This document shows, in pieces, positions 47,701 through 64,000 of a stretch of 64,000 nt of DNA. The notes beneath the pieces are model-generated. The model did not search any database and was not told the origin of the DNA. It saw nothing but the letters and a program-made list of their open reading frames with translations. Source of the stretch: an uncultured Acidiferrobacterales bacterium (GTDB taxonomy: Bacteria; Pseudomonadota; Gammaproteobacteria; Acidiferrobacterales; UBA6901); assembly GCA_964368085.1 (NCBI GenBank), contig CAYJBG010000001.1, forward strand, positions 23,135-87,134. The letters run 5' to 3'. A program made the position numbers and the translations under genes. The first letter of the stretch is position 1, and each line of letters starts with the position of its first letter.

Positions 47701-50700
47701 GGTCGCCGTCGCGAGCGACTCCTCTGCGCAGGCGATAGTCTATCGCCGCCATCAGGTGTTGCTGTGCGATCTGCCGCATCTCGATCCGGATCGCTTGCAA
47801 GCCCTTATTCCAGGCATCGAGGCGAAGCGGCTTTCGGTTGCAGGCGCGGAAAACGTCGCCGAACGCTATTGCCTCGCCGCTTTGGCATGTTTCGATGAAC
47901 TGCAATCTCTCCTGAAGAATGCACCCCAAGAGAAGACGCTGTTCCAGTTGGTCATCGGACACGAAGGAGATGATGCGCTGTTCGCCGGACTTTCCGGCCT
48001 GATCGATACGGCGAGATTGGAAAATCCCAATTTGGTCGGCCAAGTTGTTCTGACCGAACGCAACATTGATGAAAGAATGCTCGCCGTGCAGCTGCGTTCA
48101 TCGCAGGCGCGATCCGGCGATTCTCTGTTCAAGCATGTGGGAAAGGCGCAAAGCGTATTGCGTTGGAATCCCCAGGAAGTCCGAGGCGCCGGCAGCATCA
48201 CCTTCAGGAATCGGGGCGTGTATCTGATCACCGGCGGCCTCGGCGGGCTGGGCGTCCTGTTCGCCAGAGAAATCCTCGAGCGGTCCGAAGGCGCAGTCGT
48301 GGTCCTGACTGGCCGCTCCGATTTTAACGCGGAAAACCGCTCTACGCTCGAGCAATTGTCCGCACAGCTGTCCATTCCGGCCGGTCGGCTCGTTTACCGT
48401 AAACTCGATCTGAATAGGTTGAATCAGGTCGAAGCCCTGGTAGCGGGCATCGCCCTGGAGTTCGGCGGCCTCAATGGCGTCATCCACGGCGCGGGGATGA
48501 ACCGGGACAACTTCATCATCAACAAGACGCCCGCCGAATTCGCGCAGGTGCTGGAGCCGAAGGTCGTCGGCACGACCAATCTGGATTTGGCCACGCAGCA
48601 CACGGATCTCGATTTCATGGTGTTGTTTTCGTCCATCGCGTCAGCGTTGGGCAATGTCGGTCAGGCGGACTATGCGGCAGCGAATGGCTTCATGGATCAG
48701 TTTGCGGCCTACCGCAACCGTTTGGTCGGTGCCAATCGCCGGCGCGGCAAAACGCTGTCGATCAATTGGCCCTTGTGGCAGGAAGGGGGCATGCAGCTCG
48801 ATGCGGTAACGCGTGATCTGTTGACGCAGACCTCGGGAATGCTGCCCTTGAAGACGGCGAGCGGCATGCAGGCGTTCCATCGGAGCCTCGAGCTGGACTC
48901 CGGCCAGGCCTTGGTCATCGAAGGCCATCTCGACCGGCTGCGCCGCGCGCTGCAGAATCGGCACGCCCCCGTCGTCGCCGAACAGCCGGCGGTTTCCGCA
49001 ACCGCCACGCATGTCGATATGAGCAAACTTCTGGAAAAGACGCAGCGCTATCTGAGCGATCAGTTTTCGAGTCTGTTGAATATCCCTCCGCACGAAGTCG
49101 ATGCGAAAGCGCCGATGGAGAAATACGGAATGGATTCCGTATTGGCGATGAAGCTGACGAATCAATTGGAGCGCACCTTTGGCTCGCTGTCGAAGACGCT
49201 GTTCTTCGAATACCAGACGATCGCGAGCCTTGCAGGCTATCTGGTAAAGGCGTTTCCCGATATCGTCCAGGCAAAGACGGGCGCAGAGCCCAGCGATGCC
49301 ACGCGTCACGAACCGCTGCTGAAAGCTCCCGTTAGCAACAGATTGTCACCGTCGATCCGAAGCAAAGGCCGCTTCGTGGCGCCAGCGGTGCAAGGCGACG
49401 ACGAGATAGCTATCATTGGCGTCGGCGGAAGATACCCATTGGCGAAGGATCTGCGTGAATTTTGGGAAAACCTGAAGAGCGGTCGCGACTGCATCACCGA
49501 AATTCCGCAGGACCGGTGGGATCACGCGCCGTTCTACGATCCAGCGCGCAATCGGCCGGGCAAAACCTACAGCAAGTGGGGTGGATTCATATCCGGCGTC
49601 GATCAGTTCGATGCCCTGTTCTTCAACATTTCTCCGAAGGAAGCGGAACTGATCGACCCGCAAGAGCGCCTGTTCATCGAGACGGTCTGGGAAACGATCG
49701 AAGATGCGGGGTACAGTAAAGACGCGATCGCCCAGAACCGCGTCGGCGTCTATGTGGGCGTCATGTGGGGGCAATATGAGCTGTACGGGGCGATATCGGC
49801 CGGCTCCGGGGCTCCAAGCTCGTCGTTCGCGTCGATCGCCAATCGCGTCTCCTATTTCTTCAATTTTCAAGGCCCGAGCCTAGCACTCGACACGATGTGC
49901 TCTTCATCGCTCACGGCCATGCATTTGGCGAGTGAGGAGCTGCGTAAGGGAGCGATCGATGTCGCCATCGCCGGCGGCGTCAATGTGTCTATCCATCCCA
50001 GCAAATACCTCAGCCTGAGCCAGGGCAATTTCGCATCGACCGATGGCCGATGCCGTAGTTTCGGCGCAGGCGGGGACGGTTACGTGCCGGGCGAGGGCGT
50101 GGGTGCCGTTCTTCTCAAGCCGTTGGAAAAAGCCATTCGCGACGGCGATCAAATTTATGCCGTCGTGAAAGCGAGTGCCATCAATCATGGCGGTAAAACC
50201 AACGGCTATACCGTACCCAATCCCATCGCGCAGTCGGACCTGATCCTCGACGCGCTCAATAAAGCCAAGGTGGATCCCGCAACCATCGGCTATATCGAGA
50301 CCCATGGCACGGGGACGTCTTTGGGAGATCCGATCGAAATCACCGGCTTGGTGAAGGCTTTCGACGGTGCCGGCCAGCAGGGCCAGTCGCGCGGAAAACA
50401 GTTCTGCCCCATCGGATCGGTCAAGTCGAACATCGGTCACCTCGAATCCGCCGCCGGAATCGCCGCAGTCACGAAGGTTCTACTGCAGCTCAAGCACCAG
50501 CAACTCGTACCTTCGCTGCATGCCGAGCGCCTCAACCCGCACATCGATTTCCCGGATACCCCGTTCTACGTGCAGACGTCGCTCGAGGACTGGAAGCGTC
50601 CGGCGGGCCATCCGCGCCGCGTCGGCGTCAGCTCGTTCGGCGCCGGTGGTTCCAACGCGCATTTGATATTGGAGGAATTCGTTGACACCCGAGGGCCGGC

Positions 50701-53700
50701 GCCGCGCCAGGATCGTCCGGAGGCATTCGTACTTTCGGCGAAGAATCGCGAATCCCTGTTCGCCTATGCGGGGAAGATGGTCGAATTCCTCGATGAAGCG
50801 TCCGATCTGTCGCTCATGGACATCGTCTTCACCTCCCAGGTCGGCCGCACGCCGATGCAGGAGCGTCTGGTAGTCATCGCGTCGAACAAGTCGGCGCTGA
50901 AGGACAAGCTGCGGCAATGGCGGCGGGAATCCCAGACCGGCGACCTGCGGACGAAACGATCCGGCGTTCTCGCGATCGAGGATGTGATCGATGGCAGCAC
51001 CAAGGACACGCAATCGAGCGCCGGCGCACTGATCGAAGGCGATGCCGGCAAGGCGTTCTTGCAGCTGACGCTCGAGAAAAGAGATCTCGCGAAGCTGGCG
51101 AAACTGTGGGTCACCGGCCTGGAGATCGACTGGTCTGCGCTTTACCGCACGGAACATCCGAAGCGGGTGTCCCTGCCAACGTATCCGTTCGCGAGGGAGC
51201 GGTACTGGATCGATGCGCCCGTGGCGCTCGGCGCTCAGCCCGGACAAGAAGTGCGCAAGCAGATGCTGTATTACCGGACCGAATGGAGTTCGACCCAGCC
51301 CGTTGCCGCAAGCGATGGTCGAAGCGCTGCCGGTCCGCTGTTGTTCCTGGGTGCCGACGAACAACTGTTCGCGGAATTCGAGCGCCAAACCTGGGGGGCG
51401 GCGGTCGTAGCGGTGAAGTACGGAGACGGCTACCGGCAGCTCGGGCCGAACATCTATTGCGTCGACCATCAGTCGGAACGCGATTTTGTCTTGCTCATCG
51501 AGGATCTGAAATCGAAGGGCGCGATGCCCGGGACGATCGTCCACTTCGTCGACGAGACAGGCGAACTCCGACAGCAACTCGATCGAGGCGTTTTCGCACT
51601 TCACTACCTGTGCAAGGCGGTGATGAAGCAGAAGCCAAAAGACGCCGTGAGGATAGTCTCCTTGCAGAAGCAAGAAACCGCCGAACACACTGCGCTCCAT
51701 CGTGCCCTGGCCGGCTATCTCAAGAGCCTGGCGCTGGAGAATCCGAAATTCTCGTGGAAGGTCGTTTCCGTGGACGGCGAGCCTGCTGCCGAGGAAACCG
51801 CGCGCGCCGTGTCGGATGAGTTGCGCGACGCCAACTGGCGCGATGGCGAAGTGCGCTATCTCTACGAACAGCAGGGCGATCGCTTCGTTTCGCGCCGACA
51901 GGTCATGCAGATGAAGCGCTACGCGCCTCGCGCCATCGAGAAGGCGAAAGAGGCGAATGTGGCCGTCAAACAGAACGGCGTCTACATCGTCATCGGCGGC
52001 CTGGGCGGGCTGGGGTACATCTTCAGCGAGTACCTGGCGAAGCAATACGGTGCGAAATTGGTGCTGACTGGGCGCTCCGCGCTCGACGCCGATCTACACA
52101 CCAAGCTCGCTATGCTGAAGTCCTACAGCAACGACGTTATCTATGTTCAGGCGGACGTTTCTGTTCAAGAGCAAGCCGAGGCGGTCGTTAACGAGGCCAA
52201 ACGCAAGTTCTCGCGCATAAATGGCGTCATCCACAGTGCGGGCGTGAATCGGGATTCTTTCGTATTGAACAAGACGCGAGAAGAGATGGAGCCCGTGTTC
52301 GCCGCCAAGATCATGGGGACGATCAACCTCGATCGGGCGACCAAGGATGAAGACCTCGATCTGTTCGTCCTGTTCTCGTCGGTCGCCGGCGCGCTCGGAA
52401 ATATAGGGCAGTGCGACTACGCCTTCGCGAATAATTTCCTCGATGTGTACGCGGAGCAAAGGCAGGCATTAGTCTCATCGCGGGAACGATCTGGAAAAAC
52501 CCTGTCGATCAACTGGCCGTTTTGGGAAGACGGCGGGATGCGGATTTCCAAGAGCGATATCGACTTGATGGAGAGGCGTTCGGGCATCTCTCCGCTTCCA
52601 ACGGAAATCGGAATCCGGTATTGGGAAACCTTCTTGCAATCGGAGGAGACGCAAGGCATCGCCCTGTACGGCGATCCTTCGCAGATCGACGCCTACCTGT
52701 CGCGCAGCGCCACGGAACAGAAGCCTTCGGTCCGGTCTGAGATGCGAGCGGAGGATGCGCAGTCGCTGCGCGAAGCGACCGAAAACTACCTCAAAACCCT
52801 GCTGAGCGAGCAGATCAAGCTTTCTGCCGACCGCATCGACTCGCAGGAACGTTTCGAGGCCTTCGGCGTCGACTCAATGATGATCAGCCGGATCAACGCC
52901 GACCTGGAGCGCGATCTCGGCGACCTGCCAAAAACGCTGTTCTACGAGTACGCCACCATCGAGGAACTGGCCGGGTACTTGATCGAGGAGGCGCAGCCTG
53001 CATTGGTCCGGCGCTTCGACGTGCCGGCCTCCGTAAATACCGTCGTCAAGGAGGCCACAGCCACCGCCATCCCCGTCGCGAGAGCGCCGATCCACAGTCC
53101 AGAGAAAGAGTCGGAAGAAATCGCGATCATCGGCGTGCATGGCCACTTCCCCCGCTCCGAGTCCCTGGCGGAGTACTGGCGTAACCTGAGAGAAGGCCGA
53201 GACCTCATCGATCTGGTGCCGGAAAGCCGCTGGGATCTCCACGAATTCTTCGATGCCGATCCCGACAACGCCAAACAGGGAAAGATTTACTGCAAGTGGG
53301 GCGGATTCCTGGACGACTTCGACAAGTTCGACGCGGCGTTCTTCAGCGTCGCGCCGGAAGACGCGCGATTGATCGATCCCCAGGAGCGCTTGTTCATACA
53401 GTCCGTATGGGCGGCTGTCGAAGATGCGGGTTACACCAGAGACAGCCTGAAGAAGCGCTATCCCAAAGCCAAGAGCGCCGACGTCGGGGTTTTCGTCGGC
53501 GTGACGACCAACACGTACCATCTGCTGACGCCGGAAGAGTGGAATCGCGGCAACATGGTGACGCCCGGGTCGCTACCCTGGTCGATCGCCAACCGGGTGT
53601 CGTATTTCTTCGATTTCCAGGGTCCCAGCATGCCGGTCGACACCGCGTGCTCGTCGTCGCTGGCGGCGATCCATCTTGCCTGCGAAAGCCTGAAGAGGAA

Positions 53701-55876
53701 GGAATGCCAGGTGGCCGTCGCCGGCGGCGTCAATCTCTACTTGCACCCCTCGAAGTATCAATCGCTCTGCCGCAGACGCATGCTGGCGGTTGACGGCAAG
53801 TGCCGCAGTTTCGGCGATGGCGGCGACGGATTCATTCCAGGCGAGGGCGTGGGCACGTTTTTGCTCAAGCCCCTGGCAAGAGCGATCGAGGACCGCGACC
53901 ATATTTACGGCGTGGTCGCCGCCAGCGCGTGCGAACACAGCGGCCGTTCGAACGGGTATTCCGCACCCAACCCGAATTCGCAGGCGATTCTGATCGAACA
54001 AACCCTGAACAAGGCGGGTATCGACCCCGAGTCCATTGGATACGTCGAGGGGCACGGTACCGGAACGCAATTGGGCGACAGCCTCGAAATCGTTTCGTTG
54101 ACGCAAGCGTTCCGTAAGCGCACGCAGAAAAAACGCTACTGCCCACTGGGATCTGTGAAGGCGAACGTCGGCCATTCGGAATCCGCGGCGGGGATCGCCG
54201 GCGTGGCGAAAATACTGTTGCAGTTCAAGCATCGGGAGATCGCGCCGACCATTCACTCCGAAAAGGTCAATCCCAATATCGATTTCAAAAATTCTCCTTT
54301 CTATTTGCAGCACGAGCTATCGCCGTGGAACGCGCCGGCCGGGCATCCACGCCGGGCGATGATCAATTCCTTCGGCGCGGGCGGCGTCAATTCTTGTCTG
54401 ATCCTCGAAGAATACGAACGGCCCGAAAGCGATGAAATCGCCGCAGGAAAGGGGCCGTATCTCGTCGTTCTGTCGGCGAAAAACGAACGGCGGCTCAGGG
54501 AAAGCGCGACCCGCTTGCGCAATCATTTGCAGGCGAGAAATGACATCGCCCCCGGCGACATCGACCTCGGCGGGCTGTCCTATACCCTGCAGGTCGGGCG
54601 TGAAGCGATGGACGAAAGACTGGCCGTCGTCGTCACCAGCGTGGACGAGCTGTTGAACGAGTTGTCCGCGCTGGTGGCGAGCGCGGCCAGCGCTGCATCG
54701 TCGAAACTCGTCCTGGGCCGCGTCGAGCCGCACCGCAGGAAGAAGTCGCCCAAGCAAGACGAAAGAGAGCGAACGAAATCCCTGTTCGATCGCGGAGACC
54801 TCGATCCGCTCGCGCGGATGTGGGTCGAAGGGCACGCCATCGAATGGGGCGATTTCTATGGCAGAGACCGCCCTTACCGGTTGCCGCTTCCCACCTATCC
54901 GTTTGCCAGGGAACGTTACTGGGTGTCGGATTCGCCGCTCCCGGAGAAGCGGATGGCCGCCCAGCCAAAGATCACGAAGATCGCTCAATTGCATCCCTTG
55001 GTCTCCCTCAACGTATCGACCTTGAAGGAAGTGTGCTTCTCGTCTTTGTTGTCGGGCAGGGAATATTACGGGCGAGACCATCAAGTTAACGGGGAACTGT
55101 TCTTCCCCGGGGCCGGGTTCCTGGAGATTGCCTGCATCAGCGGGACGATCGCGAGCGAAAAGCCGGTGACTCGTATCGAAGATATCGTCTGGATCCAGCC
55201 GCTCAGGCTCACGACCGGGGACCATCTGGTCAAAACGTTCCTGAAGTCTAACGGCAACAGCACGGAGTATGTGATCGTCTCGTTCAACGATGACAACGAG
55301 CGGGTTTTGCATTCGGAAGGCCGGGTGCTCTACGGGACCGAGAGTAATGAGGCTCAGGCCGTCTATTCGATCCAGGAACTGAAGAATCGCGCCGGGAAGA
55401 CCGTGCAGGGATCGGATTGTTACAGGCAACTCGAAGGCTTCGGCTTGCGTTACGGCCCGTGCTTTCAGACCATCCAAAAGTTATACATCGGCGACAGTTT
55501 CGTGCTCTCCAAACTGAACCTCGCCGAAGAACTGAAAAACGACTTCGAGCAATACATCCTTCATCCATGCATCATCGATGCCGCCCTGCAGACGGTCATC
55601 GGTATGGCCGCGGAAGGGGAGCCGGATACGCCATATTTGCCTTTCGCTTTGGACGGAGTAGAGATCTTGCGGCCGTTGTCGGAGACCTGCTACGCCTATG
55701 TCGAGCATTCCGTATCGGAGCATCCTGCCAAGTCGGATATAAAGCAATTCAATATCCGGTTGCTGAGCGAAAGCGGCAGCGTGCTGGTGCGGCTGAACAA
55801 CTTCTACGTGCGGGCGCTTCGCAGCGCACGAAGCAGCGTGTGGGACGAGACTGACGGCCTTTTGTTGATGAAGTGA
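42032..55876 (+). CDS. Trans-AT polyketide synthase 3 (~4614 aa): DH-KR-ACP / KS-DH-KR-ACP / KS-KR-ACP / KS-DH (no terminal ACP or TE)
   Basis: Uninterrupted 13.8-kb ORF. The start is set at ATG 42032 (MNTMIDFIEYVV..., aagaaaga upstream) because ATG 42002 lies in the loop of a 14-bp hairpin. It has three KS domains and ends ...NNFYVRALRSARSSVWDETDGLLLMK directly after a DH. Confidence 0.95.
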   Translation: MNTMIDFIEYVVSELKGRRLSKENVLNLIRQFSGNSASSGKSSVIHPLLQRNISDIHQQRYRSSFDGDEFFLSDHQVVADGGDLLSVLPGVAYLEMAMVAVADALPDVSSAERVQLKDVVWIKPFVVAERKELFIALSAAGSDMITIEFEVFSEEFVDEGQVDEVVHCRGTATFGHCETPERLDIESLEKRAASGQINASAVYPAYLKMGMKFGPAHQAVSRVFRGEREVVARLALPSAVSGTLEEYALHPSLMDGALQAAIGLLGDLQQLPGRPSLPFALESLRAFSGCKQDMVAWIRHAKDSSPHDKVTKLDIDLCDDEGNICVQLRGFSSRTLSASPDIRKRPLSEKIGQQVGLILANPVWKRSEIENAGAASAAQHHVPQHHVLFCDLPGVSAARVQELMPNIRVHQVSAKSAGMAERFLETALSCFETVRKIIKAKTEVGARSGAFIHIAVPDELDANLLIGLSGLLKSAALENPDVQGQLLLVDGRVASDEMLSRLRAESGQAKDAIVRYREGVRQVLALQEFHASSATPEIAFKEGGVYLVTGGLGGLGTLFAKEILRQTVHAKIILTGRAELSEGVREKLKALAAEDAAERRIEYRALDLANPDQVRQLVADIEARYRQLNGIIHSAGMIADNFIAKKTPEEFAQVLAPKVFGAVNLDSASQDLDLDFLVLFSSGASIMGNVGQSDYAVANGFLDQFADYRNRLVVTGQRKGKTLSINWPLWQDGGMHMPQHDQDAMRETTGMHPMQTHTGIHAFYRCLEAQQQTVVIEGQLEKIRHILFDGHKAPSESAPQESTPAIGGAVEKPLGDLSEQTRDYLRKQFADLFKLPYSKVDSRAPLEKYGIDSILAMDLTRQLEKTFGSLSKTLFFEHQTIDELTDYFLRSHPSKLTSIFKVPNQAHAQVQVASSKSPADAPSPAALRLARTSATRKLRREHEPAAAAPIYSARNDEPIAIVGLSGRYPESTDIEAFWENLRDGKDCIVEVPKDRWDWREYYSEDRTTEGCHYSKWGGFITGVDEFDPLFFNIPPVDAELIDPQERLFLQHAWMAIEDAGHTRASLKVAHQEGQAGQVGVYVGVMYGEYQLFGAESSLQGKRMGIPQSYASIANRVSYFLNLHGPSMTLDSMCSSSLTAIHLACQDLKQGRTNLAIAGGVNVTIHPNKYFILSAGQFISSDGHCQSFGEGGDGYIAGEGVGAVVLKRLSEAEKDGNHIYGVIKGSALNHGGKTNGYSVPNPKAQASVIALALQEYGVDARHVSYIEAHGTGTKLGDPIEIAALTQVFREYTKERQFCAIGSAKSNIGHCESAAGIAGLTKVLLQMKNRMIVPSLHSAVLNPYIDFEASPFVVNQTLRAWDQPEVDGKRVPRIAGISSFGAGGSNAHLIVEEYPVYGSAGSASPCNELESPHARAIIPLSARTNGQLKRKVEDLLAFIKRHEYAIDLHSMAYTLQVGREAMDVRLAFVVGSIAQLVEKLESYSRDEQGIDQCFYAQVEQDKDSMSVLSQDDDMMEAIDKWIARKKLAKLADIWVKSLDIDWRKLHTDRKPSLISLPTYPFARDRYWVTRAVGRSATSRPGAPVLHPLLHTNTSDFFQQSYSSEFTGDESFLADHQIGADGGGKQKILPGVAYLEMVRAAVDLALPVRSGTRRLEIRNVAWVQPLTVDGKKRVSITLSPNGEGIVDFEVQTSEDDAQDQLIHCQGQVEVSSAARPNPLDIDALKARMTHGTMAPDGIYDAFRAMGIHYGPSFRCVATIHRGHDQLLAELNLPGGLDQNNNDYYILHPGLLDSALQASIGLVADLDSLPNQPSVPFALDSIVLVAPCASRMFAWVRQAEGGQPGNGIGKVDIDLCDQDGNLCALLTGLASRTMHTRADQDSIGLLLACPSWEEVAVASDSSAQAIVYRRHQVLLCDLPHLDPDRLQALIPGIEAKRLSVAGAENVAERYCLAALACFDELQSLLKNAPQEKTLFQLVIGHEGDDALFAGLSGLIDTARLENPNLVGQVVLTERNIDERMLAVQLRSSQARSGDSLFKHVGKAQSVLRWNPQEVRGAGSITFRNRGVYLITGGLGGLGVLFAREILERSEGAVVVLTGRSDFNAENRSTLEQLSAQLSIPAGRLVYRKLDLNRLNQVEALVAGIALEFGGLNGVIHGAGMNRDNFIINKTPAEFAQVLEPKVVGTTNLDLATQHTDLDFMVLFSSIASALGNVGQADYAAANGFMDQFAAYRNRLVGANRRRGKTLSINWPLWQEGGMQLDAVTRDLLTQTSGMLPLKTASGMQAFHRSLELDSGQALVIEGHLDRLRRALQNRHAPVVAEQPAVSATATHVDMSKLLEKTQRYLSDQFSSLLNIPPHEVDAKAPMEKYGMDSVLAMKLTNQLERTFGSLSKTLFFEYQTIASLAGYLVKAFPDIVQAKTGAEPSDATRHEPLLKAPVSNRLSPSIRSKGRFVAPAVQGDDEIAIIGVGGRYPLAKDLREFWENLKSGRDCITEIPQDRWDHAPFYDPARNRPGKTYSKWGGFISGVDQFDALFFNISPKEAELIDPQERLFIETVWETIEDAGYSKDAIAQNRVGVYVGVMWGQYELYGAISAGSGAPSSSFASIANRVSYFFNFQGPSLALDTMCSSSLTAMHLASEELRKGAIDVAIAGGVNVSIHPSKYLSLSQGNFASTDGRCRSFGAGGDGYVPGEGVGAVLLKPLEKAIRDGDQIYAVVKASAINHGGKTNGYTVPNPIAQSDLILDALNKAKVDPATIGYIETHGTGTSLGDPIEITGLVKAFDGAGQQGQSRGKQFCPIGSVKSNIGHLESAAGIAAVTKVLLQLKHQQLVPSLHAERLNPHIDFPDTPFYVQTSLEDWKRPAGHPRRVGVSSFGAGGSNAHLILEEFVDTRGPAPRQDRPEAFVLSAKNRESLFAYAGKMVEFLDEASDLSLMDIVFTSQVGRTPMQERLVVIASNKSALKDKLRQWRRESQTGDLRTKRSGVLAIEDVIDGSTKDTQSSAGALIEGDAGKAFLQLTLEKRDLAKLAKLWVTGLEIDWSALYRTEHPKRVSLPTYPFARERYWIDAPVALGAQPGQEVRKQMLYYRTEWSSTQPVAASDGRSAAGPLLFLGADEQLFAEFERQTWGAAVVAVKYGDGYRQLGPNIYCVDHQSERDFVLLIEDLKSKGAMPGTIVHFVDETGELRQQLDRGVFALHYLCKAVMKQKPKDAVRIVSLQKQETAEHTALHRALAGYLKSLALENPKFSWKVVSVDGEPAAEETARAVSDELRDANWRDGEVRYLYEQQGDRFVSRRQVMQMKRYAPRAIEKAKEANVAVKQNGVYIVIGGLGGLGYIFSEYLAKQYGAKLVLTGRSALDADLHTKLAMLKSYSNDVIYVQADVSVQEQAEAVVNEAKRKFSRINGVIHSAGVNRDSFVLNKTREEMEPVFAAKIMGTINLDRATKDEDLDLFVLFSSVAGALGNIGQCDYAFANNFLDVYAEQRQALVSSRERSGKTLSINWPFWEDGGMRISKSDIDLMERRSGISPLPTEIGIRYWETFLQSEETQGIALYGDPSQIDAYLSRSATEQKPSVRSEMRAEDAQSLREATENYLKTLLSEQIKLSADRIDSQERFEAFGVDSMMISRINADLERDLGDLPKTLFYEYATIEELAGYLIEEAQPALVRRFDVPASVNTVVKEATATAIPVARAPIHSPEKESEEIAIIGVHGHFPRSESLAEYWRNLREGRDLIDLVPESRWDLHEFFDADPDNAKQGKIYCKWGGFLDDFDKFDAAFFSVAPEDARLIDPQERLFIQSVWAAVEDAGYTRDSLKKRYPKAKSADVGVFVGVTTNTYHLLTPEEWNRGNMVTPGSLPWSIANRVSYFFDFQGPSMPVDTACSSSLAAIHLACESLKRKECQVAVAGGVNLYLHPSKYQSLCRRRMLAVDGKCRSFGDGGDGFIPGEGVGTFLLKPLARAIEDRDHIYGVVAASACEHSGRSNGYSAPNPNSQAILIEQTLNKAGIDPESIGYVEGHGTGTQLGDSLEIVSLTQAFRKRTQKKRYCPLGSVKANVGHSESAAGIAGVAKILLQFKHREIAPTIHSEKVNPNIDFKNSPFYLQHELSPWNAPAGHPRRAMINSFGAGGVNSCLILEEYERPESDEIAAGKGPYLVVLSAKNERRLRESATRLRNHLQARNDIAPGDIDLGGLSYTLQVGREAMDERLAVVVTSVDELLNELSALVASAASAASSKLVLGRVEPHRRKKSPKQDERERTKSLFDRGDLDPLARMWVEGHAIEWGDFYGRDRPYRLPLPTYPFARERYWVSDSPLPEKRMAAQPKITKIAQLHPLVSLNVSTLKEVCFSSLLSGREYYGRDHQVNGELFFPGAGFLEIACISGTIASEKPVTRIEDIVWIQPLRLTTGDHLVKTFLKSNGNSTEYVIVSFNDDNERVLHSEGRVLYGTESNEAQAVYSIQELKNRAGKTVQGSDCYRQLEGFGLRYGPCFQTIQKLYIGDSFVLSKLNLAEELKNDFEQYILHPCIIDAALQTVIGMAAEGEPDTPYLPFALDGVEILRPLSETCYAYVEHSVSEHPAKSDIKQFNIRLLSESGSVLVRLNNFYVRALRSARSSVWDETDGLLLMK
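44900..49250 (+). other. PKS module 8: KS8-DH8-KR8-ACP8
   Basis: KS8 ~44900-46206 (SMCSSS, Cys 45427). DH8 ~46775-47642 (LADHQIGADGGGKQKILPGVAYLEM; HPGLLDSALQ). KR8 ~47670-48960 (GVYLITGGLGGLG ~48214). ACP8 ~49028-49250 (GMDSVLAMKL). Confidence 0.85.
49399..52985 (+). other. PKS module 9: KS9-KR9-ACP9
   Basis: KS9 ~49399-50680 (TMCSSS, Cys 49898; ETHGTGT; NIGHLE). KR9 ~51260-52690 (GVYIVIGGLGGLG ~51976; HSAGVNRD). ACP9 ~52765-52985 (FGVDSMMISRI). No DH. Confidence 0.85.
53114..55825 (+). other. PKS module 10 (incomplete in this window): KS10-DH10, no carrier or release domain
   Basis: KS10 ~53114-54416 (TACSSS, Cys 53648; EGHGTGT; NVGHSE). DH10 ~54989-55825 (GRDHQVNGELFFPGAGFLEI; HPCIIDAALQ). 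The ORF stops at 55876, about 17 codons later. Confidence 0.85.
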
Positions 55877-55885
55877 TTGCCGGGG

Positions 55886-56356
55886 ATGAGTGTAATGAGC
55901 AAAGCAGCAATAAAATCCAGGATGCCACCGCCGCTCCCATTTTTATTGGGCGTGGTTGCAGGACTAGTGTGTGACTGGTTTTGGCCTTGGCGGATCACGT
56001 GCTATCCCTATGCGTTCACTGTCGGAATCTTGCTAATCGGGGCGGTAGTCGTTTTGCTGATGGCCTTGACGCGAGCGTTCAAAAAGCACGGCACGCCCGC
56101 GGATCCGGTAAAAGAAACTACAGTGATCATTGACGCTGGTCTGTTCAGGTTATCGCGCAATCCGGCTTACGTTACCGTGGCGGTTCTACAAGCGGCTGTC
56201 GGATTTATTCTCAACAACGCATGGATATTACTGTTGATATTACCGGCGATGATCGTCATTCATTATGTTGTTGTCCTTCGCGAGGAAGCTTACTTGGAGG
56301 CTACGTTCGGCAACGAGTACCTGAAGTACAAGACGCGGGTTCGGCGTTGGATATAG
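55886..56356 (+). CDS. ICMT/PEMT-family integral-membrane methyltransferase
   Basis: About 4-5 predicted TM helices. Family signature GLFRLSRNPAYV...VLREEAYLEATFGNEYLKYKTRVRRWI. Alternative starts are TTG 55877 (abutting the PKS3 stop at 55874-55876) and ATG 55895. Confidence 0.75.
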   Translation: MSVMSKAAIKSRMPPPLPFLLGVVAGLVCDWFWPWRITCYPYAFTVGILLIGAVVVLLMALTRAFKKHGTPADPVKETTVIIDAGLFRLSRNPAYVTVAVLQAAVGFILNNAWILLLILPAMIVIHYVVVLREEAYLEATFGNEYLKYKTRVRRWI

Positions 56357-56367
56357 CGGAGCAATTT

Positions 56368-57075
56368 ATGGATCGACATCACATAGGCGATGAAAAACAC
56401 AAATTCTCGCCGCAAGTATTCTTGCTTAAGGTTTCGCGCCAGATGATGAAGAACAATAATTATCTGGTCGTCGATCCTGCCAGTCATCAAGCGGTGGTCG
56501 TGGATCCAGCCTGGCAGATAGAGAAAATCCAGTCCGCATTGGCGAGCACCCGGTCGACTTTGAGCGGCATCTTGATCACGCATACCCATTTCGATCACAT
56601 AGATTTGGCGAAACCGCTGGCGGATTTCTATAACTGCCCCATATGGATGTCCAAGCAGGAGATTGAGGCTTCTGGATTCGCCGCCAGACAGTTGATCGCG
56701 ATAGACGAAAACCCATGGTCCGTAGGGGAGATGTGGATACAGCCGATACTGACTCCGGGTCATACCCCCGGCTGCATCTGCTATCTGATCGGAGACAATT
56801 TGTTTACCGGCGATGTGTTATTCGCTGAAGGCTGTGGGATTTGCAATGATATCCAAGCCGCTTACGAGATGTTCGCGAGCCTCGAACGGCTGAAGTCCCA
56901 CTTGAAACCGCATACGTACATTTTTCCCGGTCACACCTACATGAGACCACCCGGTCAGAGATTCTCGGATGTGCTGGGTAACAACATATACCTTCATTTC
57001 GACGACAAGGAATCATTCGCCGCTTTCCGTTTGAGGAAGGGGCAGAGCGAACGCAAGTTACTGGATTTCCGTTAG
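56368..57075 (+). CDS. Metallo-beta-lactamase-fold hydrolase, glyoxalase-II (thiolesterase)-like
   Basis: ggag lies before ATG 56368. Motifs: ILITHTHFDHID (HxHxDH), LTPGHTPGCICY, FTGDVLFAEGCG, FPGHTY. The track start at 56221 overlaps the methyltransferase and was rejected. Confidence 0.8.
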   Translation: MDRHHIGDEKHKFSPQVFLLKVSRQMMKNNNYLVVDPASHQAVVVDPAWQIEKIQSALASTRSTLSGILITHTHFDHIDLAKPLADFYNCPIWMSKQEIEASGFAARQLIAIDENPWSVGEMWIQPILTPGHTPGCICYLIGDNLFTGDVLFAEGCGICNDIQAAYEMFASLERLKSHLKPHTYIFPGHTYMRPPGQRFSDVLGNNIYLHFDDKESFAAFRLRKGQSERKLLDFR

Positions 57076-57201: not shown

Positions 57202-58461
57202 ATGAACATGGTTGGAATCGAAGCGATGAACCTCTTTGCCGGTACAGGCTTTGTGGATGTAACGAAGCTTGCTAGGCATCGAAAGCTGGACATGAGTCGG
57301 TTTGAAAATTTGATGATGAAGGAGAAAAGCGTCGCCTTGCCCTATGAGGATCCCATCACTTTTGCAGTCAATGCAGCGAAGCCAATTATTGATGCATTGA
57401 TTCCCGAAGAGAAAGACCGGATCGAGATGGTGATTACTTGCACGGAATCTGCGTTCGATTTCGGAAAATCCATGAGCACCTACTGTCACGATGTGCTCGG
57501 GCTGAATCGCAACTGCCGTCTGTTTGAGCTGAAGAACGCCTGTTACTCGGGCGTTGCTGGCCTACAGATGGCGATCAATTTCGTCTTGTCCCAAACATCG
57601 CCGGGCGGCAAGGCATTGGTCATCGCCACCGACGTTTCCCGTTTCATGGTCGAAGAAGGTGGTGACGCGCTTTCGGCCGACTGGTCCTTCGCCGAGCCGA
57701 GCGGTGGATCCGGGGCTGTTGCAATGTTGATCAGTAACAAGCCCTACGTGTTCCAGATCGATGTGGGCGCGAACGGTTATTACGGTTACGAAGTGATGGA
57801 CACCTGTCGGCCTTCTGCGGACACTGATGCGGGGGACACGGATTTGTCCTTGCTTTCGTATTTGAATTGCTGCGAGAACGCCTACCTCGAGTATCAGAAG
57901 CGCGTCGACGGCGCTCATTTCGGAGAAACCTTCGGTTACTTGGCCTATCACACGCCGTTCGGCGGAATGGTCAAGGGCGCTCACCGCAACATCATGCGCA
58001 AGTTTGTCAAAGCTAAACCGGCGGACATTGAAGATGATTTCCAGCGTCGTGTGACGCCCGGTCTCATCCATTGCCAGCGGGTAGGCAATATCATGGGCGC
58101 GACCGCCGCGCTCGCCCTTGCCAGCACCATCGATAACGGAGAATTCGAAACGCCTAAACGCGTCGGGGTCTTCTCCTACGGTTCGGGCTGTTGTTCGGAA
58201 TTCTTTAGCGGCGTTGTCAGAAAAGAAGGCCAGGAACGTCTGCGAGCGCTCAAGATCAAGGAAAGACTGGACTACAGGTATGAGCTGTCGATGGAGCAGT
58301 ACGACCGCCTGCTCGAGAAGAGTCGGGAACTGAAATTTGGTACGCGCAACATGGTTCCAGACATGGAATTTATCCCGAAGGCCAGAACGACCCTTAACCA
58401 ACCAACCTTGCTACTGAAACAGATCAAAGAGTTTCATCGAGAGTACGAATGGGTATGCTGA
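57202..58461 (+). CDS. HMG-CoA synthase-like beta-branching enzyme (HMGS; PksG/CurD/MupH type)
   Basis: ggagg lies before ATG 57202. Active-site motif ELKNACYSGVAG (Cys codon 57541), plus YHTPFGGMVKGAH and GNIMGA. 419 aa. Confidence 0.92.
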   Translation: MNMVGIEAMNLFAGTGFVDVTKLARHRKLDMSRFENLMMKEKSVALPYEDPITFAVNAAKPIIDALIPEEKDRIEMVITCTESAFDFGKSMSTYCHDVLGLNRNCRLFELKNACYSGVAGLQMAINFVLSQTSPGGKALVIATDVSRFMVEEGGDALSADWSFAEPSGGSGAVAMLISNKPYVFQIDVGANGYYGYEVMDTCRPSADTDAGDTDLSLLSYLNCCENAYLEYQKRVDGAHFGETFGYLAYHTPFGGMVKGAHRNIMRKFVKAKPADIEDDFQRRVTPGLIHCQRVGNIMGATAALALASTIDNGEFETPKRVGVFSYGSGCCSEFFSGVVRKEGQERLRALKIKERLDYRYELSMEQYDRLLEKSRELKFGTRNMVPDMEFIPKARTTLNQPTLLLKQIKEFHREYEWVC

Positions 58462-59234
58462 ATAGCGCCTACGAAACGATCCGAGTGAAGTTTGAAGACG
58501 ACATTTGTTTCGTTCAAATCCATCGACCGGAATTCAACAACGCGATCAACAATCGCCTAATCGAAGAGTTCGGCGACGCCCTTCATGTGTGTGAAGGGCC
58601 CGCGAAAGTCGTGGTGGTGGAGGGGCTACCGGACGTTTTTTGCTCCGGTGCGGATTTCAAAGAGATTCAAACGAGATTCGACGATGAAAGCCCAAGCCAG
58701 GAGCAGGATCCAGAACCACTGTACGACTTATGGCATCGGCTCGCTTCGGGACCCTATATCACCATCGCCCATGTACGGGGCAGGGCCAATGCCGGCGGCA
58801 TCGGCTTCGTAGCCGCGTGTGATATCGTTCTTAGCGAGAACAAGGCGGCATTCAGCTTGTCCGAACTGCTGTTCGGCTTGATGCCGGCATGTGTTCTGCC
58901 ATTCCTTATTCGTCGGATTGGATTCGCGAAGGCCAATTATATGACGCTGACGACTCAGCCGATTCCCGCGAGTCAAGCGCGGGAGTGGGGATTGGTCGAT
59001 GCCTGCGAAGATAACAGCGAGAATCTGTTACGCAAGCAACTGTTGAGGCTCAGGCGTCTCGGTCTGGACGGAATCGCGCGATACAAGCGCTATGCCAACA
59101 GTCTGGACGACGCGCTTAGTGCATCCAAGCTGAAAGCGCTTGAAGCTAACGTGGAAGTGTTTTCCGATCCGGACAATCTTCAGAAGATCGCCCGCTACGC
59201 AAGGACAGGAAAATTCCCCTGGGAGGCCGATTGA
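58449..59234 (+). CDS. Discrete enoyl-CoA hydratase-like ECH1 (dehydratase, PksH/CurE type)
   Basis: Crotonase fold with VVVVEGLPDVFCSGADF and HVRGRANAGGIGFVAACD. It overlaps the HMGS stop by 13 nt. Confidence 0.85.
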   Translation: MGMLNSAYETIRVKFEDDICFVQIHRPEFNNAINNRLIEEFGDALHVCEGPAKVVVVEGLPDVFCSGADFKEIQTRFDDESPSQEQDPEPLYDLWHRLASGPYITIAHVRGRANAGGIGFVAACDIVLSENKAAFSLSELLFGLMPACVLPFLIRRIGFAKANYMTLTTQPIPASQAREWGLVDACEDNSENLLRKQLLRLRRLGLDGIARYKRYANSLDDALSASKLKALEANVEVFSDPDNLQKIARYARTGKFPWEAD

Positions 59235-59983
59235 TGTCAGACCAGATCATCGAAACCAAGGGGCTGGGCTCCGGGATCGTCCAAGTGAAGATGCAGGATC
59301 GTGTCAATAAGAACGCGTTCACCAACGAACTGATTGATGGTCTGACCGAGGCGTTCGAGGACATCAAGGCCCGCACCGACTATAAAGTCGTGATCCTGAC
59401 GGGCTACGATAATTATTTCTCCAGCGGTGGCACGCAGGAAGGACTGCGCGATCTATTCGAGGGGAAGATCAAGTTTACGGACAAAGACCTGTACAGCCTA
59501 GCGCTGAACTGCCCGATTCCTGTGATCGCGGCCATGCAGGGCCATGGTATCGGCGGCGGCTTCGTCATGGGGATGTTCGCCGATTTCGTGATTCTGGCGA
59601 GGCAAAGTATCTACACGACCAACTTCATGAAGTATGGCTTCACGCCAGGCATGGGGTCGACCTTTATCCTGCCAAAAAAGCTGGGGTTCAGTCTGGCCGA
59701 GGAGATGATGCTGACCGCGTCGACCTATCGCGGAGAAGAGCTTCAAAATCGTGGCGTTCCTTTCCCCGTTATTCCTCGAGAAAATGTGCTAGAGCACGCC
59801 TTCGAGCTGGCCAAGAGCCTAGCTGAAAAACCTAGGGTGTCGCTGGTCACGCTGAAAGATCATCTGGTCACGCCGCTTAGGGAGCAACTACCAAAGTTTA
59901 TCGAGCAAGAGATCGCCATGCACGAGCTCACGTTCCACCAGCTGGAGGTCAAGGATCGCATTGAGGCCTTCTTCGGAAAGTGA
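59234..59983 (+). CDS. Discrete enoyl-CoA hydratase-like ECH2 (decarboxylase, PksI/CurF-ECH2 type)
   Basis: The ATG overlaps the ECH1 stop (TGATG). Motifs: VVILTGYDNYFSSGGT, AAMQGHGIGGGF, EIAMHELTF. Confidence 0.88.
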   Translation: MSDQIIETKGLGSGIVQVKMQDRVNKNAFTNELIDGLTEAFEDIKARTDYKVVILTGYDNYFSSGGTQEGLRDLFEGKIKFTDKDLYSLALNCPIPVIAAMQGHGIGGGFVMGMFADFVILARQSIYTTNFMKYGFTPGMGSTFILPKKLGFSLAEEMMLTASTYRGEELQNRGVPFPVIPRENVLEHAFELAKSLAEKPRVSLVTLKDHLVTPLREQLPKFIEQEIAMHELTFHQLEVKDRIEAFFGK

Positions 59984-60020: not shown

Positions 60021-60260
60021 ATGAGTAAAGAGAAAATCTTTGAGATCATCGTTCGCCATACCCGTGAGGTGGTTCCGAGATTGGAAGATCATCAGTTTCA
60101 GCCGAGCGATTCACTGAGGGCGCTGGGCGCCAATTCGGTCGACCGTGCCGACATCATCATGATGACTTTGGAGTCCTTGGCTCTGAACATTCCTTTGATT
60201 GAAATAGCCAAAGCCGACAACATCGGGGAATTGGCCGGTATTTTCCATGAGAAGTCCTAG
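60021..60260 (+). CDS. Discrete donor ACP of the HMGS cassette (AcpK/MacpC type)
   Basis: 79-aa acidic protein with LRALGANSVDRADIIMM (Ser attachment site). ggag lies upstream. It sits between ECH2 and the decarboxylating KS. Confidence 0.8.
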   Translation: MSKEKIFEIIVRHTREVVPRLEDHQFQPSDSLRALGANSVDRADIIMMTLESLALNIPLIEIAKADNIGELAGIFHEKS

Positions 60261-63228: not shown

Positions 63229-64000
63229 ATGTCTTCAATCAATAAGAACCGTACTGTCAATGAAGTTTCGGCCGAGCCGAATGTTCCGATCAAAGTCGCG
63301 AGCGAGCTGCCTCCCCCGGCGGTCATCGATGGCATCCAGTCGGACGCCCTCAATGCGGCGACCAATGTCGCAACACGTGAACCGGTTGCTGCAGCCACTT
63401 ATGCAAAAGCTGGTGTTCGAGAGGTCGTCGCTGGTTGTTGCGATCGCCGCGGTTCTATCCGACCGGTTGGCTTCGGCGGACATATGACAGCCCTCACTGC
63501 ATGCGTTCAAAGGCGGTGATCCCGCTTGCCTGAACCGTTCACATAGACTGCTCAACATGAAGGATCTTCACGCGCTGCAAATTTACCGGATCGAGCAATC
63601 GTTGTGGCAGCGGGACCGCAAGGGACTTGATCTTGCTCTGTCGAACAAGGGAACGGTCGCTTTCTGTATCGACGTTCATCCTGTTGCCCGCATCGGCGCA
63701 CGTGTGATGCTCGATCACGTCAGCGGAATTGCGAACGGCAAAACAGCGATCGTCGACGACAACGTCTCCATTCTCCAAGACGTTACTTCGGGAAGGACAG
63801 GAAACGAACGGGGCAATCGCCACCCGAAAGTCCGCTGCGGCGCCATGACCGTTGCCAGCAAATATATACTCGGCAAGGTCGAGATCGGCGAGATGAGAAA
63901 AATCGCTGCAGGAAATGTTGTTCCAGAGGCAGTGCCGATACGTTGCACCGTCGACGGCGTGCCTGCAAGGATTGTTCAGCAGCATCAGCATAGCTGTTTG
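63229..64000 (+). pseudogene. cysE: Serine O-acetyltransferase (cysE) pseudogene, runs off window
   Basis: From 63557, frame 2 (absent from the track, which lists only ORFs that end in a stop codon, and this frame has none before the window end) reads MKDLHALQIYRIEQSLWQRDRKGLDLALSNKGTVAFCIDVHPVARIGARVMLDH...NVSILQDVTSGRTGNERGNRHPKVR...DGVPARIV. This is colinear with E. coli CysE LKGFHALQAYRIGHWLW...VDIHPAAKIGRGIMLDH...DRHPKI...GVPARIV. N-terminal homology is split between frame 1 (REPVAAATY) and frame 2 (LMQKLVFERSSLVVAIAAVLSDRLAS). An in-frame TGA lies at 63485-63487. Conserved hexapeptide Gly residues are substituted. Confidence 0.6.

What the first reader, a model, noticed from the sequence alone, without database searches (positions are those of the whole stretch)
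53114..57075. Assembly line ends at KS10-DH10: no terminal ACP, TE or other release domain in the window
Seen: PKS3 stops about 17 codons after DH10. KS10 has all catalytic residues, so it should elongate, yet it has no cognate ACP. No alpha/beta-hydrolase TE (GxSxG) is present anywhere in the three PKSs or the downstream genes. PKS1/PKS2 and PKS2/PKS3 are both joined through split modules, so a fourth protein beginning with (KR)-ACP-...-TE is expected. None lies in the ~8 kb downstream (accessory genes, then a pseudogene) or in the ~6.7 kb upstream. Two explanations are possible. The missing partner may be encoded beyond the window or elsewhere in the genome. Alternatively, release may be non-canonical. 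The glyoxalase-II-like MBL hydrolase (56368-57075) belongs to a family of thioester hydrolases and is the only hydrolase candidate. No acyl-hydrolase (AH) paralogue of the AT is present either.
Basis: partly seen in the sequence, partly recalled or inferred. Interest (0 to 1): 0.7.

Follow-up and report, generated by a model that had tools for sequence, protein, structure and literature searches.

The report
Release domain lies just outside window
The polyketide assembly line does not stop at the third synthase: two more synthase genes lie just upstream of the window, the last ending in an ordinary thioesterase, so the missing release domain comes from where the window was cut.

Summary
The sequence facts hold inside the window. 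PKS3 (42002-55876) ends 12 residues after DH10. KS10 has Cys/His/His. No ACP follows it, and no thioesterase is found in any of the six frames.

The assembly line does not end there. The same 95.4-kb metagenome contig, read from assemblies 100% identical to the window, carries three more genes upstream. These are PKS-A (3505 aa), an aminotransferase, and PKS4 (1239 aa: ACP-KS0-ACP-TE). PKS4 stops 945 bp before window position 1.

PKS-A homologues begin with an ACP, then a DUF2156 plus PLP-lyase pair resembling the leinamycin DUF-SH didomain, and end in KS-DH. Only one order gives every half-module a partner: PKS1, PKS2, PKS3, PKS-A, PKS4-TE. Relatives support this order: some place the PKS3 orthologue directly before the PKS-A orthologue, and others fuse KS-DH-ACP-DUF-PLP in one ORF. 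A cultured Bordetella tumulicola has the same permuted gene order.

The MBL hydrolase is SolJ-like and sits on the same contigs as the TE protein in at least eight relatives. Its tested relative solJ is dispensable for solanimycin bioactivity. A PksD-like acyl hydrolase starts 94 bp beyond the window end.

Verdict: canonical release and a window-edge artefact.

The parts
10..1815 (+). 3' part of an MMPL/RND-type transporter gene (full length 860 aa), cut by the window start. The TE-bearing PKS4 gene ends about 180 bp upstream of this gene's start, which is 945 bp before window position 1.
   Evidence: Pfam MMPL. Full gene and upstream neighbours in L010/L012. L010 is 100% identical to window 1-18138.
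6603..8138 (+). AMP-dependent ligase, the presumed starter-unit activating enzyme.
   Evidence: Pfam AMP-binding. The position before SDR-ACP-PKS1 is conserved in Bordetella tumulicola.
8159..8899 (+). FabG-like short-chain dehydrogenase.
   Evidence: Pfam adh_short_C2 and KR.
8880..9182 (+). Small free-standing ACP (100 or 88 aa, depending on the start codon), the presumed loading carrier.
   Evidence: Called gene with PP-binding. ACP profile hit.
9219..26462 (+). PKS1: KS-DH-KR-ACP | KS-DH-ECHx3-ACP | KS-DH-ACP-ACP-DH-like | KS-DH.
   Evidence: Domain map. The gaps are ECH and DH-like domains by Pfam.
26459..41941 (+). PKS2: KR-ACP | KS-DH-ECHx3-ACP-ACP | KS-DH-KR-cMT-ACP | KS.
   Evidence: Domain map. 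ECH and methyltransferase domains by Pfam.
42002..55876 (+). PKS3: DH-KR-ACP | KS-DH-KR-ACP | KS-KR-ACP | KS10-DH10. It ends without a carrier domain.
53096..54433 (+). KS10, with the catalytic Cys/His/His intact.
   Evidence: Motif table.
54992..55837 (+). DH10, with His (HQVNGELFFP) and Asp (HPCIIDAALQ). It is the upstream half of a split module whose ACP-DUF2156-PLP half is at the N-terminus of PKS-A, outside the window.
   Evidence: Fused or adjacent versions in relatives.
55895..56356 (+). Membrane methyltransferase of the PEMT/ICMT family.
   Evidence: Pfam PEMT. NCBIfam isoprenylcysteine O-methyltransferase hit, below its cut-off.
56368..57075 (+). SolJ-like MBL-fold hydrolase (THTHFDH motif). 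It is the first gene of the accessory operon in relatives and is not needed to explain release.
   Evidence: PMC9765074.
57202..58461 (+). HMG-CoA-synthase homologue of the beta-branching cassette.
58449..59234 (+). ECH1.
59231..59983 (+). ECH2.
60021..60260 (+). Free-standing ACP (79 aa) of the beta-branching cassette.
60247..61515 (+). Free-standing KS with Ser in place of the active-site Cys (GGASASGQ). This is the decarboxylase type found in beta-branching cassettes.
61691..62842 (+). AT1, the trans-acting malonyl-CoA:ACP transacylase.
   Evidence: TIGR00128 fabD 334.9 bits, above the 260.9-bit cut-off. GHSLG, Arg and AFHS motifs are visible in the sequence.
63557..64000 (+). Serine-O-acetyltransferase-like (hexapeptide) gene, cut by the window end. 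The full gene runs to window-equivalent 64084.

Best explanation
PKS3 is not the last synthase. Its C-terminal KS10-DH10 is the upstream half of a split module, like the PKS1/PKS2 and PKS2/PKS3 junctions. The downstream half is the N-terminal ACP of a fourth synthase, PKS-A (3505 aa).

PKS-A has the architecture ACP-DUF2156-PLP lyase-KS-DH-KR-ACP-KS-DH. It also ends in KS-DH and hands over to PKS4 (1239 aa), which is ACP-KS0-ACP-TE. The chain is released by the canonical C-terminal type I thioesterase of PKS4, after transfer through a non-elongating KS.

The PKS-A, aminotransferase and PKS4 genes lie together upstream of the transport and loading genes, from about window -16,950 to -945. Gene order is therefore permuted relative to assembly order, and the 64-kb window cut them off.

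Shown:
- The sequence and domains of PKS4.
- The C-terminal 2742 aa of PKS-A.
- Their position on the same contig.
- Conservation of the arrangement in relatives.

Inferred:
- The N-terminal ACP of this genome's PKS-A, from precomputed Pfam hits, matching length, and 36 of 37 close relatives (of 47 loci examined).
- The docking order.
- The activity of each domain.
For: 1. L010 and L012 (ENA ERZ1292623) are 100% identical to window 1-18138. L004 (ERZ1292643, the 95,405-bp contig) is 100% identical to window 52918-64000.
2. Upstream of the window lie PKS-A (3505 aa), an aminotransferase (585 aa) and PKS4 (1239 aa), then the MMPL gene whose 3' part opens the window.
3. PKS4 (P0001) is recorded on the 95,405-bp contig.
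4. PKS4 domains are ACP 12-83, KS 182-626, ACP 851-926 and TE. The TE scores 95.5 bits against PF00975, cut-off 26.4. GYSNG and GNH motifs are visible. Its PDB hits are NRPS, PKS and FAS TE domains.
5. The PKS4 KS keeps the Cys but has Asp and Asn in place of the two His residues, so it is a KS0. KS1-KS12 are intact.
6. The seen part of PKS-A is PLP-KS-DH-KR-ACP-KS-DH, ending about 50 aa after the DH. Its precomputed Pfam hits start with LPG_synthase_C and Beta_elim_lyase.
7. Of 47 PKS-A homologue loci examined, 36 of the 37 close relatives have an ACP at residues about 15-95, before DUF2156-PLP. The unseen N-terminus here is 763 aa, and the equivalent stretch in the closest relatives is 763-777 aa.
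8. In L018 and L019 the gene directly upstream of the PKS-A orthologue is the PKS3 orthologue. It is 52% identical over about 3050 aa and colinear to PKS3 residue 4606.
9. L050 and L066 fuse KS-DH-ACP-DUF-PLP in one ORF, and L049 fuses DH-ACP-DUF-PLP. L019, L050 and L081 fuse the later KS-DH-ACP junction.
10. Cultured Bordetella tumulicola has the same order: PKS-A, AmT, PKS4-TE, MMPL, LolA-like, GMC oxidoreductase, AMP-ligase, SDR, ACP, PKS1.
11. Two proteins end in KS-DH and two begin with an ACP. Only 3 to A to 4 leaves no orphan.
Against: - The first 763 residues of this genome's PKS-A could not be fetched, so its N-terminal ACP is inferred and not read.
- No docking domains were analysed, and no experiment links PKS3 to PKS-A.
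- Module 10 (KS-DH | ACP) has a DH but no KR. The chemistry at this module is therefore not fully explained by the in-line domains.
- The TE's activity and its substrate are untested.
Confidence: 0.9

Rival explanations
1. Non-canonical release. The chain built by PKS1-3 is hydrolysed from the line by the glyoxalase-II-like MBL hydrolase (56368-57075), and PKS3 is truly the last synthase.
For: - The MBL gene lies directly after PKS3 and the methyltransferase gene.
- It has the full THTHFDH, GH, D and H metal-ligand set, read from the sequence, and is related to hydroxyacylglutathione thiolesterases.
- MBL-fold thioesterases exist in other pathways (own knowledge: PqsE and fungal ACTE enzymes).
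Against: - KS10-DH10 has no carrier to hold an elongated chain unless PKS-A supplies it.
- A canonical TE is present in the cluster.
- MBL orthologues (64-79% identical) lie on the same contigs as the TE protein in at least eight relatives.
- In Chitiniphilus purpureus the MBL opens the HMGS/AT operon with no PKS next to it.
- The MBL is below the GloB cut-off, 98.8 against 200.8 bits.
- Deleting the homologue solJ left solanimycin bioactivity unchanged, and solJ is missing from several sol clusters (PMC9765074).
Confidence: 0.03
2. Two separate lines. PKS3 docks directly onto PKS4 (KS10-DH10 | ACP-KS0-ACP-TE), while PKS-A belongs to another pathway or makes a second chain.
For: - PKS4 begins with an ACP that could in principle complete KS10-DH10.
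- An aminotransferase gene separates PKS-A from PKS4.
Against: - PKS-A would have no loading module, because its homologues start with an ACP. It would also have no carrier for its own terminal KS-DH.
- In L018 and L019 the PKS3 orthologue is directly followed by the PKS-A orthologue.
- L050 and L066 fuse KS-DH to ACP-DUF-PLP.
- The PKS-A, AmT, PKS4 block is conserved as a unit in L027, L030, L032, L036, L041, L042 and L084.
Confidence: 0.05
3. Release by the trans-acting acyl hydrolase (AT2, PksD-like), encoded just beyond the window end.
For: - AT2's best solved relative is PksD (E 2e-77), against 2e-17 for the true transferase PksC.
- It has GASLG and lacks the carboxylate-binding Arg, read from the sequence.
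- PksD-type enzymes hydrolyse acyl-ACPs (own knowledge).
Against: - These enzymes are known as proofreading hydrolases for stalled short acyl units (own knowledge). They occur alongside TEs, as they do here.
- A canonical TE is present.
Confidence: 0.02

Closest known systems
Split-module trans-AT polyketide synthases ending in KS0-ACP-TE (own knowledge: bacillaene-type pksX systems and many others reviewed for trans-AT PKSs)
   Same: - No in-line AT domains.
- Free-standing AT1 (FabD-type) and a PksD-like AH.
- Modules split between proteins at KS-DH | ACP or KR-ACP.
- An HMGS/ECH/ACP/KS(Ser) beta-branching cassette.
- A terminal non-elongating KS followed by ACP-TE.
- An MBL-fold gene beside the accessory genes, as with pksB in B. 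subtilis (from memory, not tested here).
   Different: - Gene order is permuted. The last two synthase genes lie upstream of the loading genes, separated from them by transport genes.
- The product is unknown.
Leinamycin-family DUF-SH (thiocysteine lyase) didomain, LnmJ/GnmT type (PMC8479088)
   Same: - PKS-A homologues carry DUF2156 (LPG_synthase_C fold) followed by a beta-eliminating PLP lyase domain directly after an ACP.
- The same search recovered actinobacterial ...KS-ACP-ACP-DUF-PLP proteins next to HMGS genes, which is the leinamycin-type layout.
- The best solved relative of the PLP part is a chain annotated 'Polyketide Synthase Protein' (9cen, 1.4e-80), then tyrosine phenol-lyases.
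   Different: - Here the didomain is in mid-line (module 10 of 13), followed by three more KSs. In the leinamycin type it is in the last module before the TE.
- Carriers are Pseudomonadota, Bacteroidota and Acidobacteriota, not actinomycetes.
- Sulfur incorporation is inferred, not shown.
SolJ, the MBL-fold hydrolase of the solanimycin cluster of Dickeya solani (PMC9765074)
   Same: - It is the best NCBIfam match of the window's MBL (NF041804, 2.4e-82, full length).
- Both sit in trans-AT PKS clusters that have their own TE.
- The paper lists SolJ's closest relative as a Caballeronia udeis protein. That species carries this cluster family.
   Different: - The score of 275.5 bits is below the model's 350-bit cut-off, so it is a relative and not SolJ itself.
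- The sol cluster is a PKS/NRPS hybrid without the same synthases.

Membership tests
trans-AT polyketide synthase | Multimodular PKS proteins lack integrated AT domains. | tested here: met
   There is no Acyl_transf_1 hit in PKS3. All stretches of PKS1-3 are accounted for by KS, DH, KR, ACP, ECH, MT and linkers.
trans-AT polyketide synthase | A free-standing malonyl transferase is encoded in the cluster. | tested here: met
   AT1 (61691-62842) scores 334.9 bits on TIGR00128 fabD, above the 260.9-bit cut-off.
Type I PKS/NRPS thioesterase domain (PF00975) as the chain-release domain | An alpha/beta-hydrolase TE domain scores above the Pfam cut-off and lies at the C-terminus directly after an ACP. 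| tested here: met
   PKS4 residues about 976-1221 score 95.5 bits, cut-off 26.4. An ACP at 851-926 precedes it. Its PDB relatives are TE domains.
Type I PKS/NRPS thioesterase domain (PF00975) as the chain-release domain | The catalytic Ser (GxSxG) and His are present. | tested here: met
   GYSNG and GNH are read in the translation. The Asp was not mapped on a structure.
Type I PKS/NRPS thioesterase domain (PF00975) as the chain-release domain | It hydrolyses or cyclises the full-length chain. | not testable with these tools
   This needs enzyme assays or genetics.
Non-elongating ketosynthase (KS0) | One or both catalytic His residues are lost while the Cys is retained. | tested here: met
   KS13 of PKS4 reads NINCASSA, EVDGYAS and NIGNVE, against HGTGT and GH in KS1-12.
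Glyoxalase II (hydroxyacylglutathione hydrolase GloB), for the MBL at 56368-57075 | It scores above the curated cut-off of the GloB equivalog model. | tested here: not met
   TIGR03413 gives 98.8 bits against a cut-off of 200.8. PRK10241 gives 61 bits against 421.
Glyoxalase II (hydroxyacylglutathione hydrolase GloB), for the MBL at 56368-57075 | The MBL-fold metal-binding motifs (HxHxDH, then His, Asp, His) are present. | tested here: met
   THTHFDH, TPGHT, TGD and PGHT are read in the sequence. The motifs are shared with persulfide dioxygenases, so they do not decide the activity.
SolJ family (NF041804) | It scores above the model's cut-off. | tested here: not met
   The score is 275.5 bits against a cut-off of 350, aligned over the full length. 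It is a homologue and not an exact family member.
Acyl hydrolase (PksD/PedC type) of trans-AT PKSs, for AT2 just beyond the window | It is closer to PksD than to true malonyl transferases. | tested here: met
   PksD 8avz gives 263.5 bits, PksC 66 bits and PksE 58 bits. The fabD model gives 112.6 bits, below the 260.9-bit cut-off.
Acyl hydrolase (PksD/PedC type) of trans-AT PKSs, for AT2 just beyond the window | It hydrolyses acyl-ACP. | not testable with these tools
   This needs an enzyme assay.
Leinamycin-type DUF-SH didomain, for PKS-A | A DUF domain is followed by a PLP-dependent lyase domain inside a PKS, next to an ACP. | tested here: met
   The precomputed Pfam hits of PKS-A start with PF09924 and PF01212. 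Homologues show ACP-DUF2156-PLP-KS. Actinobacterial leinamycin-type architectures were recovered with the same profile.
Leinamycin-type DUF-SH didomain, for PKS-A | It adds cysteine or thiocysteine and cleaves the C-S bond to leave sulfur on the chain. | not testable with these tools
   The product is unknown. The PLP lysine region of this genome's PKS-A lies in the part that could not be fetched.
HMGS beta-branching cassette | HMGS, two ECH enzymes, a donor ACP and a Cys-to-Ser KS are all present. | tested here: met

The most novel reading that the evidence does not exclude
The missing release domain is explained, but the cluster itself may be new biology. It belongs to a widespread, uncharacterised trans-AT PKS family found in Pseudomonadota, Bacteroidota and Acidobacteriota, including cultured Bordetella, Chitinophaga and Aliikangiella.

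In this family a leinamycin-like DUF-SH didomain sits in mid-line, exactly at the split KS10-DH10 | ACP junction. It could install a thiol or hydropersulfide on a lipid-like polyketide.

The conserved SolJ-like MBL has a persulfide-dioxygenase-type protein as its best solved relative (the identity of 4ysb is from memory). Together with the neighbouring membrane methyltransferase and the serine-acetyltransferase-like gene, it could then serve sulfur handling, not chain release.
Probability: 0.3. Interest if true: 0.6.

Novelty: new member of a known kind. Interest (0 to 1): 0.15.

Why it matters
The practical value is negative. An apparent TE-less, MBL-released assembly line would have been a notable exception. 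Instead it is a canonical KS0-ACP-TE terminus hidden by the window edge and by permuted gene order. This warns against inferring missing domains from a fixed window when the synthase genes of a cluster are not colinear with the assembly order. The by-product is a corrected 13-module model of an orphan cluster family. Cultured carriers of that family exist, so its mid-line sulfur-incorporation didomain and its conserved MBL can be tested.

Tried and rejected
- The full-length PKS-A could not be obtained. The search for homologous proteins with its first visible 700 aa returned only proteins up to about 1200 aa and not the 3505-aa protein.
- Exact 60-mer scans of genome contigs and metagenome contigs found nothing.
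- Look-up of ORF 2794-4185 failed because the called start differs.
Taxonomy is therefore only suggested by the closest PKS-A relatives, Thermomonas and Rhizobacter MAGs at about 63% identity.
- Literature searches found no paper describing this cluster family or DUF-SH domains outside the leinamycin family.
- The PksB search returned only genome-mining papers, and I did not read them. The PksB analogy therefore stays a recollection.
- I considered the free-standing 79-aa ACP (60021-60260) as the partner of KS10-DH10 and rejected it. It sits inside the HMGS cassette in the usual donor-ACP position, and PKS-A supplies a dedicated ACP.
- I did not predict or compare structures, because no open question here depended on a fold.
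Full report
**What the window holds.** The window is a trans-AT polyketide synthase cluster. All genes are on the + strand:
- An MMPL transporter cut by the window start (10-1815), a LolA-like protein, an unknown protein, a GMC oxidoreductase and another unknown protein.
- An AMP-ligase (6603-8138), an SDR (8159-8899) and a small ACP (8880-9182).
- PKS1 (9219-26462), PKS2 (26459-41941) and PKS3 (42002-55876).
- A PEMT/ICMT-like methyltransferase, an MBL hydrolase (56368-57075), HMGS, two ECH enzymes, an ACP, a KS with Ser for Cys, and an AT.

A domain map was built by iterating KS, KR, DH and ACP queries over the cluster's own proteins. Pfam was run on the unassigned stretches. The result is:
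- PKS1: KS-DH-KR-ACP | KS-DH-ECHx3-ACP | KS-DH-ACP-ACP-DH-like | KS-DH.
- PKS2: KR-ACP | KS-DH-ECHx3-ACP-ACP | KS-DH-KR-cMT-ACP | KS.
- PKS3: DH-KR-ACP | KS-DH-KR-ACP | KS-KR-ACP | KS-DH.

**Check of the observation.** The in-window facts are correct.
- PKS3 ends 12 residues after DH10 (DH aa 4331-4612 of 4624).
- KS10 has Cys/His/His.
- DH10 has HQVNGELFFP and HPCIIDAALQ.
- No ACP follows DH10.
- A TE profile built from more than 100 homologous TE domains finds nothing in any frame of the window.
- The PKS1/PKS2 and PKS2/PKS3 junctions are split modules.

**What lies outside the window.** The window comes from a groundwater metagenome. L004, from the 95,405-bp ENA contig Hain_H51_01um_R3_57, is 100% identical to window 52918-64000. 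L010, from a second assembly, is 100% identical to window 1-18138.

Upstream of the MMPL gene these assemblies carry three genes:
- A 3505-aa PKS, here called PKS-A.
- A 585-aa class III aminotransferase.
- A 1239-aa PKS, here called PKS4 (P0001).

PKS4 ends 945 bp before window position 1 and is recorded on the same 95,405-bp contig. Its domains are as follows:
- ACP at residues 12-83.
- KS at 182-626.
- ACP at 851-926.
- TE, with PF00975 at 95.5 bits and the GYSNG and GNH motifs.

Its KS keeps the Cys but has Asp and Asn in place of the two His residues. It is therefore a non-elongating KS0, whereas KS1-KS12 are intact. This is a common terminal arrangement of trans-AT PKSs (own knowledge).

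Downstream of the window lie a serine-acetyltransferase-like gene cut by the window end, a second AT homologue (window-equivalent 64094-65035), a TPR-methyltransferase and an Sfp-type PPTase.

**Order of the assembly line.** The visible 2742 residues of PKS-A read PLP domain-KS-DH-KR-ACP-KS-DH, so PKS-A also ends in KS-DH. I could not fetch its first 763 residues. Three lines of evidence describe them:
- The precomputed Pfam hits for the full protein begin with LPG_synthase_C (DUF2156) and Beta_elim_lyase.
- A profile of that region recovered 66 related loci. Of the 47 examined, 36 of the 37 close relatives begin with an ACP at residues about 15-95, followed by DUF2156-PLP-KS.
- The length of the unseen part (763 aa) matches the equivalent stretch of the closest relatives, 763-777 aa.

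Two proteins therefore end in KS-DH (PKS3 and PKS-A), and two begin with an ACP (PKS-A and PKS4). The only pairing without an orphan is PKS3 to PKS-A to PKS4. Independent support comes from relatives:
- In two Thermoanaerobaculia genomes (L018, L019) the gene directly upstream of the PKS-A orthologue is the PKS3 orthologue. It is 52% identical over about 3050 aa and colinear to PKS3 residue 4606.
- L050 and L066 fuse KS-DH-ACP-DUF-PLP into one ORF, and L049 fuses DH-ACP-DUF-PLP.
- L019, L050 and L081 fuse the later KS-DH-ACP junction.

The permuted gene order is not an assembly error. It recurs in several independent assemblies and in the cultured isolate Bordetella tumulicola: PKS-A, AmT, PKS4-TE, MMPL, LolA-like, GMC oxidoreductase, AMP-ligase, SDR, ACP, PKS1.

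**The MBL hydrolase.**
- Its best family match is SolJ, the MBL-fold hydrolase of the solanimycin cluster. NF041804 gives 2.4e-82 and 275.5 bits, below the 350-bit cut-off.
- It fails the GloB cut-off, 98.8 against 200.8 bits.
- Its best solved relatives are 4ysb, annotated only as an MBL family protein, then GloB and ETHE1-type enzymes. From memory, 4ysb is a bacterial persulfide dioxygenase.
- Orthologues 64-79% identical lie on the same contigs as PKS4 orthologues in Bordetella tumulicola, Aquimonas and six metagenomic contigs. In Aliikangiella coralliicola the MBL orthologue shares its contig with the PKS-A orthologue.
- In Chitiniphilus purpureus and Aliikangiella it is the first gene of the MBL-HMGS-ECH-ECH-ACP-KS-AT-AT operon.
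- In Dickeya solani an in-frame solJ deletion did not change bioactivity. solJ is absent from several sol clusters, and that pathway has its own TE (PMC9765074).

The MBL is therefore a conserved accessory enzyme of unknown role. It is not a replacement for a TE.

**The acyl hydrolase.** AT1 passes the FabD model at 334.9 bits. AT2 has PksD as its best solved relative (2e-77, against 2e-17 for PksC). It shows GASLG and lacks the carboxylate-binding Arg. A PksD-like AH paralogue therefore exists, 94 bp beyond the window end.

**Comparison with known systems.**
- The terminus is a canonical KS0-ACP-TE on a separate protein. The apparent anomaly came from the window boundary and from non-colinear gene order.
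- The DUF2156 plus PLP pair matches the leinamycin-family DUF-SH layout. The same profile recovers actinobacterial ...KS-ACP-ACP-DUF-PLP proteins next to HMGS genes.
- The PLP part's best solved relative is a chain annotated 'Polyketide Synthase Protein' (9cen), then tyrosine phenol-lyases.
- Here the didomain sits in mid-line at module 10, and in Gram-negative lineages. I found no paper describing this arrangement.

**Verdict.** The finding itself is ordinary, so its interest is low. The cluster family's mid-line DUF-SH-like didomain and its conserved SolJ-like MBL are the parts worth a separate look.

Noticed in passing
Upstream of the window: L012 1-8229 (PKS-A, window-equivalent about -16,950 to -6436). 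Relatives L016-L081.: PKS-A carries a DUF2156 (LPG_synthase_C fold) plus a beta-eliminating PLP lyase pair directly after its N-terminal ACP. This is the layout of the leinamycin-family DUF-SH (thiocysteine lyase) didomain. Here it lies in mid-line, and the carriers are Pseudomonadota, Bacteroidota and Acidobacteriota. It suggests sulfur incorporation at module 10.
   Followed up: partly
window 63557-64000 (the gene continues to window-equivalent 64084; L004 10640-11167): A serine-O-acetyltransferase-like hexapeptide gene (PRK11132, 1.2e-50) is cut by the window end. A counterpart sits at the same place in Chitiniphilus purpureus. It could supply cysteine for the DUF-PLP step. It is not an evident pseudogene.
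   Followed up: partly
L004 11177-12118 (window-equivalent 64094-65035): A second AT homologue is most similar to the B. subtilis acyltransferase homologue PksD (8avz, 2e-77). It has GASLG and no carboxylate-binding Arg, so it is probably the proofreading acyl hydrolase of the cluster.
   Followed up: yes
window 16203-18848 (PKS1 aa 2329-3210) and 30920-33394 (PKS2 aa 1488-2312): Two modules each contain about 850 aa with three in-line crotonase (ECH) repeats between the DH and the ACP(s). Free-standing ECH1 and ECH2 are also present. This is an unusually heavy beta-branching apparatus.
   Followed up: no
window 10-6294 and L012 13898-20959: An MMPL transporter, a LolA-like protein, a 457-aa protein (its Bordetella counterpart is weakly DUF1302), a GMC oxidoreductase and a 254-aa unknown protein sit between PKS4 and the loading genes. 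They are conserved in Bordetella tumulicola. The set suggests export of a lipid-like product towards the outer membrane.
   Followed up: no
L012 8242-9999 (between PKS-A and PKS4): A 585-aa class III aminotransferase (glutamate-1-semialdehyde aminomutase-like) is conserved between the PKS-A and PKS4 genes in many relatives. It may aminate an intermediate at modules 12-13.
   Followed up: no
window 55895-56356: A membrane methyltransferase of the PEMT/isoprenylcysteine carboxyl methyltransferase family lies between PKS3 and the MBL gene. No gene is called at that position in Aliikangiella or Chitiniphilus. Its substrate is unknown.
   Followed up: no
whole window: G+C is 58-66% in most of the three PKS genes and about 49-55% in the flanking accessory and transport genes.
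   Followed up: no
L004 12167-14806 (window-equivalent 65084-67723): An 879-aa TPR plus class I methyltransferase protein is conserved after AT2 in Chitiniphilus purpureus and several related loci. An Sfp-type PPTase follows on the opposite strand.
   Followed up: no
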